In this document: positions 36,001-39,000 of the stretch, one piece after another
How positions within the stretch are numbered: the stretch's first letter is position 1
Layout of the letters: each line of letters starts with the position of its first letter
NCBI GenBank assembly: GCA_041649955.1
Contig: JBAZMD010000002.1
Coordinates: forward strand, 7,709-71,708
Reading direction: 5' to 3'
DNA: 64,000 nt
Origin: Patescibacteria group bacterium
GTDB taxonomy: Bacteria; Patescibacteriota; Patescibacteriia; UBA2591; JAQUPP01
Position numbers: made by a program

Positions 36001-39000
36001 TTATTTGTTGATTTTTCCGCTCCGCTTAAACTCATTTTTTTGGATTGCTGCATTGGCGCTCTTTCCACCAAGCCGACTTTGTAAATAGAATAAACCACTT
36101 GCTTGTCAATCGCGTCAAGAAGTTGGTTGAATTTTTGAAAAGATTCTTTTTTATATTCCACCAACGGATCGTGCTGGCCATAAGCTCTGAGTCCGATACC
36201 ATCTTTAAGATTATTGATAATTTCCAAATGATAAATCCAATAACGGTCAATGCTTTGAAGTAGAATTGATTTTTCAATTTTTTCCAATAAATTCGGCTCC
36301 GGAATTGATAATGATTTGCCGGATGCTTCAACCGTCGCTTCCAATTTATCATAAGCCTCGTGGGCCAATTCTTCTAAATATTTTATCAATCTGTCGCGAG
36401 TATAAACATCTTGCGAACGATTGCCGGCTTGATTGTAAATATCATTCAAGGCTTCTTCTAAATTTTCCTGAACCGGAAAAATATTTTTAATTAAATTGGC
36501 AATGCCCTTAACGTCCCACTGATTTTCCGCGTCGCCGGCCGTATGAAAAGCGACTATTTTTTTAATTTCTTCTTCAACGACGTTTAAAATTTTCTCTTTT
36601 AATCCTTCTTTATCCATGGCCAAAATCTTTTTTCTTCGGCCATAAATCGTTTCGCGGTGCTTGTTTAAAACATCATCATAGTCAAGCAAATGTTTTCTCA
36701 TGTCAAAATTAAATTCTTCAACTTTTCTTTGAGCTGATTCAATGGCTCGGGAAACCATTCTGTTTTCAATCGGAAAATCTTCCGGAATTTTTAAAGTTTG
36801 CATTAAACCTGAAATGCGGTCGCCGCCGAAAATTCTCATCAAATCGTCTTCCAAGGAAATGAAAAATTCAGTTGAACCCGGATCGCCTTGTCGTCCGCTT
36901 CTTCCTCTTAACTGATTATCAATGCGGCGTGATTCGTGCCTTTCCGTACCGATTACGCGCAGACCTCCGGCTTCAATAACTTTTTTTTGTTCTTCAATAT
37001 CCGGCGGATTTCCACCCAAAATAATATCCACTCCCCGACCGGCCATATTGGTGGCCACGGTTATTGCTTTCATTCTTCCGGCTTGAGCGATAATTTGCCC
37101 TTCTCTTTCGTGATTCTTGGCGTTTAAAACTTCATGAGGAATTCCTTTTCGTTCCAATAATTGAGAAACTAATTCATTTTTATCCACTGAAATAGTACCA
37201 ACCAAAACCGGTTGGCCTTTTTCATAACATTTTTTAATTTCCTCCGCCAAAGCATTATATTTTCCCTGTTCAGTGCGATAAATTTTATCCGAAAAATCTT
37301 CTCTGGTCACGGGTTTATTGGTGGGAATAGCCACTACTTCCAAATGATAAATTTTATCAAATTCTTCCGCTTCGCTGAGAGCCGTACCGGTCATACCGGC
37401 TAATTTTTTATAAAGACGAAAATAATTTTGAAAACTGACTGTGGCCAAAGTATTTGATTCCTGTTGAACTGCCACATTTTCTTTGGCTTCAATGGCTTGA
37501 TGCAAACCCTCGGAATAACGGCGGCCAAACATTAATCTTCCCGTAAATTCATCAACAATCACTATTTCTCCGTCTTTAACCACATAATTGCGATCTAATG
37601 TAAAAAGGCTTTCGGCTTTTAAAGCGGATTCAACATGATGAACTAAAGTGAAATTACTGGTTGCCCACGGATCTTCACCCAGCCAAGCCACCAATTTATT
37701 TTGTCCGCCTTCGGTTAAAATGACGGTTTGCATTTTTTCATCAACAATATAATCTTCTTCTTTTTTAAAATTTTTAGCCAAGCGCGCCAATTTAAAATAC
37801 AAGTCAGCCGATTCTTCAGCCGGTGAAGAAATAATCAAAGGAGTTCTGGCTTCATCAATTAAAATACTGTCCACCTCGTCAACAATGGCGTAATTAAATT
37901 CTCGCTGAGCCATATCATCCAAACTGTAAACCAAATTATCTCTTAAATAATCAAAACCGAATTCATTATTCGTGCCGTAAGTAATGTCAGCCTGATACGC
38001 CTCTTTTCTTTTAATCGGTCGCAGATAACTTTTTATAATTTTAAAAGCTTCCACTTCTTTATTTTCTTCTTTTTTTTCTGTATTTATCACCAACTTTTCC
38101 TGGCTTTTTTCCGTGTCAGTCCGTGTCTCGTCCGTGTTAGTCTGTGCAGCGTAATTCGGATCATAAATAAAAGCCGCATCATGAACAATGCAGCTGACGC
38201 TTAATCCCAAAGCATAATAAATTTGGCCCATCCAAACAGTGTCTCGGCGAGCCAAATAATCATTAACCGTAATAATATGTACGCCCTTTCCGTCCAGAGC
38301 ATTCAAATAAGCCGCTAAAGTGGCGGCTAAAGTTTTTCCTTCACCGGTTTTCAATTCAGCGATTTGCCCTTTATGAAGAATAATACCGGCCATTAATTGA
38401 ACATCAAAATGCCTTTGTTTTAATGTTCTCTTGGCCGCTTCTCTCGTCAAAGCAAAAGCTTCGGGCAAAATTTGATCCTTGGATTTTCCATTTTTCAATT
38501 CATTTTTCAATTCATTTGTTTTTTCAACTAAATCACTATCGGATAATTTTTCAAATTTCGATTCCAAAGAATTTATTTTTTCCACAATCGGCAAAAGTTT
38601 TTGAATTTCTTTTTTGTTCGGGTCGCCAAAAATTTTTTTAAAAAGGGACATAATAGGTTTATAGTTTATGGTTGATGGTTATAGTTGTTTAGTTATTGGT
38701 TTTAAAACTGAAAACTAATAAACTGAAACTAATAACCAAAAACTACATTGAACTGTTTTTATTCTTCGTCTTCATTCTCTTCTCCCTTTTTAGAAAATAA
38801 GGAAGAAATCGCTTTTGTGCCTCTGACAAATTTATTAATCAAACGCTTTTTGGACTCGCGAATGCCTCTATAATGTTCCAATTGCTTTCTGATTTTTTCT
38901 TCAACTTTATCTATGGCCTCTTGAACATTGGTTGCCCGAACCGAAGCCTCTAATAATCTATCCGGCATTTTTAAAGCCAGTTCCAATCTGAAAGCTTCTG

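What the first reader, a model, noticed from the sequence alone, without database searches (positions are those of the whole stretch)
38110..38148. Partial repeat-family copy inside secA
A GTCCGTGT-unit stretch (ccgtgtcagtccgtgtctcgtccgtgttagtctgtgcag) lies in secA and encodes an acidic TNTDETRTDTEKS loop. It uses the same strand and frame as the murC and pgk copies. This points to a mechanism that integrates these elements in one preferred phase, or to selection that only tolerates that phase.
Basis: seen in the sequence. Interest (0 to 1): 0.5.

Follow-up and report, generated by a model that had tools for sequence, protein, structure and literature searches.

The report
Eroded coding palindrome inside secA
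The short repeat in secA is a worn-down copy of an 80-95-base palindromic repeat that sits in frame inside several housekeeping genes of this candidate-phyla-radiation bacterium and its relatives, much like the "selfish DNA" palindromes of Rickettsia, and seems to be tolerated because it adds a floppy surface loop.

Summary
Window 38109-38147 carries four GTCCGTGT-type units in secA (35907..38651, - strand). They read as AQTNTDETRTDTEKS, on the same strand and in the same frame as the murC (two), pgk and Wzy-like copies. A profile built only from the other copies finds the secA stretch at E=8e-7 (1e-4 without pgk), and 18 nt are identical to the pgk copy.

The full element is an 80-95-nt imperfect palindrome built of 10-11-nt units: (ACRCGGAC)n, a loop, then (GTCAGYGT)n. 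The secA copy is an eroded full copy, with an intact 5' arm, the loop and a roughly 55%-identical 3' arm (38078-38147). One sister lineage shares it; another has an unrelated shorter sequence there. It lies in the hypervariable, predicted-disordered part (pLDDT<50) of a Thermotoga-like NBD1 insertion.

The same architecture occurs widely in Patescibacteria. In long ORFs it is always sense and in one frame (..NAD/NTD..RGKSQRKSA..), inside tRNA synthetases, GyrA, LepA, SHMT and PolX; intergenic copies also exist. In full copies that frame is usually the only open one and gives the most hydrophilic peptide, so selection is enough to explain the fixed phase. No target-site duplication was found; filled sites look like replacements of the native loop. 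The closest analogue is the Rickettsia palindromic elements. I found no prior description in CPR.

The parts
35907..38651 (-). secA gene (914 aa), host of the copy in question
   Evidence: ORF. 100% match to a 'preprotein translocase subunit SecA [Patescibacteria group bacterium]' record, with SecA Pfam domains.
38109..38147 (-). Well-preserved 5' arm of the secA copy. In mRNA sense the four units are GCACAGAC, ACACGGAC, ACACGGAC, ACACGGAA, and they encode AQTNTDETRTDTE.
   Evidence: 18/18 identity with the pgk copy. Aligns to profile positions 8-48.
38105..38108 (-). Loop position of the secA copy (AAAA in mRNA sense)
   Evidence: Profile alignment and comparison with the pgk and murC-b copies.
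38078..38104 (-). Decayed 3' arm of the secA copy (mRNA GCCAGGAAAAGTTGGTGATAAATACAG). It encodes ..SQEKLVINT.
   Evidence: The profile alignment runs to position 66 of 95, at window 38088. 16-17 of 30 ungapped matches to the 3' arms of the pgk and murC-b copies; 2-10 of 2000 shuffles reach this. At all three sites in the 19-nt core of the decayed arm (GGAAAAGTTGGTGATAAAT) where lineages A and B differ, one lineage keeps the canonical base (read from the alignment).
44099..44191 (-). Full palindromic copy in pgk (44018..45328). It encodes RQAQTNTDKNTDLHGNRQRKSVLSQYGSAHV.
   Evidence: RNA hairpin -28.2 kcal/mol, z -3.8. Present in lineages A and B, absent in C.
5900..5989 (-). Full palindromic copy in murC (5501..7009), site b. 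It encodes MNADLHGRHTDGHRKCQCKSVLSQCQSVLF.
   Evidence: Hairpin -37.5 kcal/mol, z -6.0. Lineages B and D carry the canonical KIGEYKKAII there instead.
6450..6537 (-). Full palindromic copy in murC, site a. It encodes ISRTNTDLTQTKTDSQCRSVSCPRKSVFV.
   Evidence: Hairpin -33.6 kcal/mol, z -3.5. Present in all four related lineages, with in-frame 21-nt and 6-nt length differences.
46846..46921 (-). One-arm tandem array of seven 5'-arm-type units (21-nt, 7-codon period) in the Wzy_C/TPR membrane protein gene (45920..48211). It encodes TNKDSRELDTDLRELNADSRGTKHGQ.
   Evidence: The loop differs completely in lineages B and C.

Best explanation
The secA stretch is a relic of an interspersed, palindromic, non-autonomous repeat element.

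Anatomy. The intact element is 80-95 nt. Its 5' arm holds 3-4 units of ACRC(G/A)GAC spaced 10-11 nt apart. A 3-6-nt loop follows, then a 3' arm of GTC(A/T/C)GYGT units.

Spread and survival. Copies spread by a mechanism not yet identified, and no enzyme was found. Inside genes, copies survive only when three conditions hold. They must lie on the sense strand. They must be in the one frame that lacks stop codons; this frame reads ..QTN(T/A)D..(H/R)G..QRKS(V/A)..SQ.., which is polar and disordered. They must sit in a surface loop that tolerates about 25-30 extra residues.

Decay. Once fixed in a gene, a copy cannot be removed by sloppy deletion. It decays in frame instead, through unit slippage (21-nt, 7-codon steps), arm loss and point mutation.

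The secA copy. It entered the hypervariable tip of the Thermotoga-like NBD1 insertion of SecA, in the common ancestor of lineages A (the window) and B, or reached both by recombination. It has kept its 5' arm and lost hairpin potential as the 3' arm eroded. It is now simply translated as part of a disordered linker.

What is shown and what is inferred. Shown: family membership, anatomy, frame and strand, presence or absence in sister lineages, distribution across Patescibacteria, disorder of the host loop, and stop-codon content of the other frames. Inferred: mobility, selection as the cause of the single phase, translation of the insert, and neutrality of the peptide.
For: Family membership:
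- Profile E=7.7e-7, or 1.1e-4 with the pgk copy left out.
- Exact 18-mer shared with the pgk copy.
- Residual 3' arm at 16-17/30 matches, P about 0.001-0.005.

Palindrome:
- Inverted repeats in the full copies.
- Hairpins of -28 to -37.5 kcal/mol, z -3.5 to -6, for full copies, against -9.6 kcal/mol, z -1.0, for secA.
- Arm-to-arm covariation GC<->AU in 4 pairs across 14 copies.

Interspersed and polymorphic:
- secA and pgk copies are in lineages A and B but not C.
- The murC-b copy is in A and C but not B or D.
- An extra Wzy copy occurs only in B.
- In-frame 21-nt and 6-nt length variants occur at murC-a.

Phase:
- All 12 copies in about 160 kb of related DNA are inside long ORFs, sense, and in the same frame.
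- Genic copies from other Patescibacteria and from metagenomes read ..NAD..RGKSQRKSA.. in the same frame. Their hosts are IleRS/ValRS-like, LeuRS, GyrA, LepA, SHMT, GatA-like amidase and PolX.
- The other frames carry 1-4 stops, and the used frame has GRAVY -0.5 to -1.8.

Intergenic copies exist elsewhere.

Permissive site:
- The loop is hypervariable in 40 SecA homologues.
- It corresponds to the insertion seen in T. maritima SecA structures 3DIN/3JUX/4YS0, which E. coli, B. subtilis and M. tuberculosis SecA lack.
- AlphaFold2 gives pLDDT<50 for residues 170-204; the relic encodes residues 169-192.

Not an assembly artefact: the secA copy is present in independent ENA and JGI assemblies.
Against: - No transposase, RAYT or other candidate mobilising gene was seen in the 30 window ORFs scanned, nor in the precomputed Pfam table for the neighbourhood.
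- There is no target-site duplication. The three filled/empty comparisons look like replacement of 27-46 nt of native sequence rather than clean insertion. Classical cut-and-paste or copy-and-paste transposition is therefore not demonstrated.
- No copy in the window or its three sister lineages is intergenic, although about 10% of the DNA is non-coding. With about 8 independent sites this is not significant, but a selection-only model would predict intergenic copies.
- The unequal decay of the two secA arms is unexplained.
- Translation of the inserts is inferred from open frames only.
Confidence: 0.75

Rival explanations
1. The single strand and phase come from the integration machinery, not from selection. 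One example would be a strand-specific single-strand-DNA enzyme (HUH/Y1-type, as for IS200/IS605 and REP/RAYT) that acts on one replication strand. Copies in leading-strand genes would then always be sense. Another example would be a system that targets particular loop-coding sequences.
For: - The arms carry a conserved strand asymmetry in both genic and intergenic copies: a G.A mismatch per loop-proximal unit.
- All five window copies lie in - strand genes on one side of a GC-skew minimum and gene-strand switch near 47-50 kb.
- The same two MurC loops are occupied in scattered lineages.
- There are no intergenic copies in about 160 kb of the closest relatives.
Against: - Stops in the other frames already explain the phase.
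- No HUH, Y1 or other transposase gene was seen nearby.
- A frame-specific integrase has no known precedent (my own knowledge).
- Intergenic copies do exist in other lineages.
- Hot-spot occupancy is equally expected if only a few loops tolerate 25-30 extra residues.
Confidence: 0.15
2. The elements work as nucleic-acid structures rather than as passengers. Possible roles are mRNA hairpins that pause ribosomes, set mRNA stability or are excised or bypassed, or DNA sites with helical (10-11-bp) phasing for a DNA-binding protein. On this view the secA copy is a dead one.
For: - Full copies form strong, conserved hairpins with covarying arms.
- The 10-11-nt unit spacing matches one DNA turn.
- Intergenic copies sit between genes, where terminator-like hairpins are common.
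Against: - Every genic copy is stop-free and its length is a multiple of three. Length variants are also in frame. Excised or bypassed sequence would not need this.
- One-arm copies (secA, Wzy) persist without any hairpin.
- Presence varies between genomes about 92-93% identical in secA DNA and 79-96% identical in MurC or SecA protein.
- No Rfam family matches.
Confidence: 0.07
3. The secA stretch arose on the spot by replication slippage in a low-complexity, hypervariable loop. It resembles the murC and pgk repeats only by convergence.
For: - TRF reports a local 10-nt tandem repeat of 3.6 copies.
- The SecA loop carries unrelated simple repeats in other lineages.
- Unit-number changes by slippage clearly occur in the family.
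Against: - Exact 18-nt identity with the pgk copy, covering a unit, a spacer and a second unit, with 0 expected by chance.
- The profile hit includes the loop and a residual second arm.
- The local sequence is GC-richer than the A/T-rich surrounding loop.
Confidence: 0.03

Closest known systems
Rickettsia palindromic elements (RPE-1 to RPE-10; Ogata et al. 2000, 2002; Claverie & Ogata 2003, as summarised in PMC10969869, PMC1779305 and PMC3733652)
   Same: - Short interspersed palindromic repeats in a reduced-genome bacterium, found both between genes and inside them.
- Genic copies are in frame, encode a family-specific peptide and sit in unrelated housekeeping genes.
- Degraded relics remain detectable only with profiles. 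The 63-84-bp RPE-7-like insert in PheT (PMC1779305) parallels the secA relic.
   Different: - Different phylum (Patescibacteria, not Rickettsiales).
- Shorter: 80-95 nt against 100-150 bp.
- Arms are built from 10-11-nt direct sub-repeats with a conserved internal mismatch.
- One-arm tandem arrays occur.
- Filled sites look like loop replacements.
- Sequence homology to RPEs was not tested, because no RPE models were available.
REP/BIME elements and intragenic REPs (GTAG- and CGTC-tagged palindromes; PMC3733652)
   Same: - Small imperfect palindromes in many copies, mostly between genes, and occasionally lying entirely within ORFs of replication, repair and tRNA-synthetase genes.
- Proposed to be mobilised in trans.
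   Different: - REPs are 20-40 bp single stem-loops with a GTAG or CGTC tag, and are linked to RAYT genes.
- Here the element is a longer multi-unit hairpin with no consistent tag, and no RAYT was seen.
Bacterial MITEs (Correia/NEMIS, RUP, ERIC, Nezha, etc.; review PMC10969869)
   Same: Non-autonomous, hairpin-forming, interspersed elements of about 70-300 bp. They can make in-frame fusions when intragenic.
   Different: - MITEs have defined terminal inverted repeats, target-site duplications and a parent IS. None of these was found here.
- MITEs are normally intergenic.
Coding palindromes of Nematomorpha mitochondrial genes (PMC6649704) and PARCEL palindromic coding repeats of Mollicutes (PMC2996958)
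   Same: Inverted repeats embedded in coding sequence with both arms translated. They are gained and lost dynamically, and deletion is blocked because they sit inside genes.
   Different: - The Nematomorpha repeats are long, perfect, gene-specific palindromes, not an interspersed family.
- PARCELs are tandem amphipathic modules of surface proteins.

Membership tests
The window's own repeat family (murC/pgk-type coding palindrome) | Significant similarity to a profile built from the other copies | tested here: met
   nhmmer E=7.7e-7 with the three-copy profile and E=1.1e-4 with the pgk copy left out. Exact 18-mer shared with the pgk copy.
The window's own repeat family (murC/pgk-type coding palindrome) | Two complementary arms forming a long hairpin | tested here: not met
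   No inverted repeat in 38000-38200. RNA fold -9.6 kcal/mol, z -1.0. Only a roughly 55%-identical vestige of the second arm remains, so this is a relic, not an intact member.
The window's own repeat family (murC/pgk-type coding palindrome) | Sense strand and common reading frame (N-T/A-D from AAY RCG GAC) | tested here: met
Rickettsia palindromic elements (RPE) | Interspersed palindromic repeat present in several unrelated genes, in frame | tested here: met
   Copies in murC (two), pgk, secA and the Wzy-like gene in the window. Copies in tRNA synthetases, GyrA, LepA, SHMT, amidase and PolX elsewhere.
Rickettsia palindromic elements (RPE) | Also present in intergenic regions | tested here: inconclusive
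   None in the window or the sister lineages. Family members do lie between ORFs in Jorgensen-, Moran- and Parcubacteria contigs.
Rickettsia palindromic elements (RPE) | Length 100-150 bp and sequence homology to RPE-1..10; Rickettsiales host | tested here: not met
   The element is 80-95 nt and the host is Patescibacteria. Homology to RPE models could not be tested, because no models were available. This is an analogue, not a member.
REP / RAYT system | 20-40-bp stem-loop with a terminal GTAG or CGTC tag | tested here: not met
   Copies are multi-unit hairpins of 80-95 nt. No consistent GTAG or CGTC terminus appears in the aligned copies.
REP / RAYT system | Associated RAYT (Y1 transposase) gene | tested here: inconclusive
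   No Y1_Tnp hit in the 30 window ORFs scanned or in the precomputed Pfam table for the neighbourhood. The rest of the genome is not available.
MITE | Target-site duplication at filled sites | tested here: not met
   murC-b, secA and Wzy-2 filled/empty comparisons show replacement or diverged flanks, with at most an ambiguous TA.
MITE | Parent insertion sequence sharing the terminal repeats | not tested
   No full-length element with these arms was looked for beyond the loci fetched. None was seen in them.
Known RNA families (Rfam 15) | Match at gathering threshold | tested here: not met
   Only three tRNAs in the window; nothing at any copy.

The most novel reading that the evidence does not exclude
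Patescibacteria carry a phylum-wide family of 'coding palindromes' with a fixed reading frame and a conserved strand asymmetry, which repeatedly replace the same surface loops of essential enzymes. On this reading there is a dedicated, still unknown insertion or gene-conversion system, or a function for the hairpin or peptide, rather than passive survival of selfish DNA. The secA relic is one of its footprints.
Probability: 0.15. Interest if true: 0.75.

Novelty: new member of a known kind. Interest (0 to 1): 0.5.

Why it matters
In-frame palindromic repeats in housekeeping genes were described as a peculiarity of Rickettsia (Ogata et al. 2002, cited in PMC3733652 and PMC6649704).

Finding an unrelated family with the same behaviour would make this a recurrent outcome of reductive, gene-dense genomes rather than a curiosity. 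Here the family occurs across the candidate phyla radiation and is read in one conserved frame inside SecA, MurC, PGK, tRNA synthetases, GyrA and LepA.

It also matters in practice:
- These inserts inflate CPR protein lengths and create spurious "lineage-specific insertions" in alignments and structure predictions.
- Their presence or absence between lineages about 92-93% identical in secA DNA (MurC proteins 79-94% identical) gives fine-scale strain markers.
- The filled/empty pairs found here give a concrete handle on how such elements enter genes.

Tried and rejected
1. Chance or low-complexity artefact. Rejected by 8-mer and 18-mer counts against shuffles and by the profile search.

2. Assembly artefact. 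Rejected: the secA copy is in independent ENA and JGI assemblies of two lineages.

3. Target-site duplications. I compared filled and empty alleles at secA, pgk, murC-b and Wzy-2 and found none. pgk and the Wzy loop are uninformative, because lineage C carries other repeats there.

4. Phage vector. The viral-contig scan for three 3'-arm units gave 16 hits, all unrelated tandem repeats in contigs of 45-69% GC, above the window's ~35%.

5. Genome-contig scan. The three-unit pattern was too permissive: 119 stretches, mostly chance or other tandem repeats in high-GC genomes. Only the low-GC CPR loci were usable.

6. Known RNA family. None at the copies.

7. Mobilising enzyme in the window. Pfam on 30 ORFs, plus the precomputed table, showed no transposase. 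It showed only a small GIY-YIG ORF next to murC and a LAGLIDADG ORF between tRNA genes, neither linked to the repeats.

8. Literature. Six full-text searches found no description of such elements in CPR/Patescibacteria. The library lacks most subscription papers, and Ogata 2002 (PMC186582) could not be opened.

9. An apparent ORF-free gap at 25.1-26.1 kb was an artefact of my greedy gene caller; murJ is there.
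Full report
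**What is at the coordinates**

The window is a low-GC contig (about 35% GC) of a Patescibacteria (CPR) metagenome-assembled genome. The ORF 35907..38651 on the - strand is SecA: 914 aa, 100% identical to a public SecA record, with SecA Pfam domains.

The quoted string is present, one base to the right of the stated coordinates (38111-38149). On the + strand it holds four 8-nt units: ttccgtgt 38109-38116, gtccgtgt 38119-38126, gtccgtgt 38130-38137 and gtctgtgc 38140-38147. On the mRNA strand they read ...GCACAGAC TA ACACGGAC GAG ACACGGAC TG ACACGGAA... and encode AQTNTDETRTDTE(KS).

**Is it more than chance, and is it the same family as the murC and pgk copies?**

Yes.
- GTCCGTGT occurs 5 times in the window against 0.25 expected.
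- Unit clusters exist at only five places, each inside a - strand gene. These are murC 5501..7009 (two), secA, pgk 44018..45328, and a Wzy_C/TPR membrane protein 45920..48211.
An nhmmer model built from the two murC copies and the pgk copy hits secA 38147..38088 on the - strand at E=7.7e-7. A model from the murC copies alone gives E=1.1e-4.
- secA and pgk share an exact 18-mer, with none expected.

**Anatomy of the family**

The three full copies are 88-93 nt: 5900-5989, 6450-6537 and 44099-44191. In mRNA sense each has:
- a 5' arm of 3-4 units ACRC(G/A)GAC;
- a short A-rich loop;
- a 3' arm of 3-4 units GTC(A/T/C)GYGT.

Unit spacing alternates between 10 and 11 nt.

They fold into long imperfect hairpins of -28 to -37.5 kcal/mol, z -3.5 to -6, with no shuffle doing as well. 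The Wzy copy (46846-46921) is a one-arm tandem array with a 21-nt, 7-codon period.

The secA copy has no inverted repeat and no significant fold (-9.6 kcal/mol, z -1.0). Even so, the profile alignment runs through the loop into the first 3' units. The 30 nt after the loop match the 3' arms of the pgk and murC-b copies at 16-17 positions, which 2-10 of 2000 shuffles reach. In the 19-nt core of that arm, lineages A and B differ at three sites, and at each one of them keeps the canonical base (read from the alignment). The secA copy is therefore an eroded full element spanning about 38078-38147, not a fragment that was partial from the start.

**Relatives**

Syntenic contigs from three close lineages were fetched. 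I call the window lineage A. B is L002/L003/L126/L127, C is L004-6/L129/L130 and D is L128. Their secA DNA is 92-93% identical to the window.

| Site | Has the element | Lacks it |
|---|---|---|
| secA | A, B (5 differences in 72 nt) | C has an unrelated, 42-nt-shorter sequence (QPPVEENSEQNENEK) |
| pgk | A, B | C has a different short repeat |
| murC site a | A, B, C, D (B lacks 21 nt, two units; C lacks 6 nt) | none |
| murC site b | A, C | B, D have the canonical hairpin KIGEYKKAII |
| Wzy, second site | B only (111 nt) | A, C |

Sources.

The family is therefore polymorphic among very close genomes, and its length changes stay in frame. The presence pattern does not fit a single tree: A+B share two sites and A+C share another. 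That implies either recombination between lineages or repeated gain and loss.

**No clean insertion signature**

At murC-b, about 27 nt of native loop are replaced by 90 nt. A terminal TCAGTG unit even supplies the conserved Ser codon, as AGT instead of TCC. At secA, about 46 nt are replaced by about 88 nt. At Wzy-2 the flanks have diverged and at most a TA could be duplicated.

**Phase**

All 12 profile hits in about 160 kb of window plus sister loci lie inside long ORFs, on the sense strand, in one frame.

Scans of public genomes and metagenomes with unit patterns recovered the same architecture with G-type units, (ACGCGGAC)n ... (GTCAGCGT)n. Hits came from Parcubacteria, Staskawicz-, Jorgensen-, Moran-, Magasanik- and Saccharibacteria, Paceibacterota and unnamed CPR contigs.

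Wherever such a copy lies in a long ORF, it is sense and reads ..(Q)TNAD..(R/H)G(K/N)SQR(K/E)SA(S/L)SQR... This is the same frame as QTNTD..HGNRQRKSVLSQ here. The hosts are IleRS/ValRS-like and LeuRS enzymes, GyrA, LepA, SHMT, a GatA-like amidase and PolX. Other copies lie between ORFs.

MurC homologues at 53-62% identity carry INAD.../RKSA-type inserts at the same two loops, in a patchy pattern on a rough neighbour-joining tree. Empty sites have uniform canonical lengths. That favours recurrent gain in permissive loops.

Six-frame translation of the window copies shows why one phase survives.
- The used frame is stop-free in all five copies. In pgk and murC-a it is the only open frame of six, and in murC-b one of two.
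- In the three full copies it gives the most hydrophilic peptide (GRAVY -0.5 to -1.5, against up to +1.35 in the other frames); in the secA and Wzy copies it is -1.6 and -1.8, with another, stop-containing sense frame as low or lower.

Selection therefore suffices. A phase-specific integration step is not required, though it is not excluded.

**Why secA tolerates it**

The relic encodes residues 169-192.
- In an alignment of 40 Patescibacteria SecA sequences, this is the most variable stretch of a lineage-typical NBD1 insertion. It carries unrelated simple repeats in other lineages.
- Among solved structures, only T. maritima SecA (3DIN, 3JUX, 4YS0) has an insertion of similar length here. E. 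coli, B. subtilis and M. tuberculosis SecA align on both sides and skip it.
- An AlphaFold2 model from a 66-sequence alignment (mean pLDDT 76.8) gives pLDDT<50 for residues 170-204, flanked by confident strands.
- Between lineages A and B the relic has 3 amino-acid changes in 24 codons, against about 4% for the whole protein. That fits relaxed constraint, although the numbers are small.

**Symmetry across lineages**

An alignment of 14 copies gives a consensus hairpin in which each unit pairs with its partner. The R:Y position covaries (GC<->AU) in four pairs. Position 5 of the loop-proximal units stays a G.A mismatch in genic and intergenic copies alike. This conserved strand asymmetry is unexplained. 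It is the main reason to keep a strand-specific mechanism as a rival.

**Comparison with known systems**

The behaviour matches the Rickettsia palindromic elements: interspersed palindromes in intergenic and coding DNA, in-frame in unrelated housekeeping genes, with degraded relics detectable by profile (PMC10969869, PMC1779305, PMC3733652).

It is not a member of that family. The host phylum differs, the element is shorter and it has a sub-repeat architecture. It also lacks the defining tags of REPs, and the terminal repeats, target duplications and parent IS of MITEs. Rfam has nothing at the copies, and viral contigs do not carry it.

Six full-text searches found no description of such elements in CPR. 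That is absence from an incomplete library, not proof of novelty.

**Verdict**

The strand and frame are as stated, and selection is the better-supported cause.
- The feature itself is a decaying passenger of no evident function in SecA.
- The wider phenomenon it points to is a moderately interesting new member of a known kind: an RPE-like family of coding palindromes across Patescibacteria, read in one conserved frame.

Noticed in passing
window 45040-45130 (- strand, pgk N-terminal part): A second, unrelated in-frame insert, NLKQIQNSTPTPIGRGSDRSVGEF. It holds two small GC hairpins (ACCCCGAC..GTCGGGG and CTCCGAC..GTCGGAG) flanked by AAAATTC-type sequence. It is present in lineages A and C and absent in B.
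   Followed up: partly
SecA loop of other Patescibacteria (P0006, P0012, P0016, P0020, P0024-26); L004 pgk and Wzy loops; L128 11100-11200: Other simple or palindromic repeat families occupy the same permissive loops in other lineages. Examples are IQNSKSKTNSKSK, SEIPNSKQIFPQDGAPLRAGNSNDQNS, ISNFQFLISK, and an in-frame (AAATTCC)5 run in the murC of lineage D.
   Followed up: no
window 38662-38745: An 84-nt intergenic palindrome with 47-nt arms, 77% complementary, built of roughly 7-nt sub-repeats. It lies immediately upstream of the secA start codon.
   Followed up: no
window 16252-17237: A LAGLIDADG-domain ORF (16355-16939, + strand) sits between tRNA hits at 16252-16335 and 16961-17033. It may be an intron-encoded homing endonuclease of the kind reported for Patescibacteria tRNA genes (PMC13011429).
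   Followed up: no
window 7000-7269 (- strand): A small free-standing GIY-YIG nuclease-domain ORF (89 aa) abuts the murC start. In lineage D a similar ORF sits between parA and parB instead, which suggests it is itself mobile.
   Followed up: no
window 47000-50000: The cumulative GC-skew minimum coincides with a switch from - strand to + strand genes near 49.7 kb, which may mark a replication origin. All five repeat copies lie to its left, in - strand genes.
   Followed up: no
L147, L153, L036, L094, L084 (other CPR contigs): Host proteins of family copies carry whole inserted domains. A class I tRNA synthetase has a His_Phos_1 domain, LeuRS has a NUDIX domain, LepA has a PD-(D/E)XK domain and GyrA has an intein.
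   Followed up: no
window 615-1290 (- strand): A Gp49-like (HigB-type) ORF and an HTH_3 ORF lie side by side, a likely toxin-antitoxin module.
   Followed up: no
L153 about 1890-1960; MurC homologue P0149 site b: A further small hairpin module (FTPL..SGA, CACCCCGC..GCGGGGCA) is nested inside family copies in two unrelated genes. This suggests composite elements.
   Followed up: no
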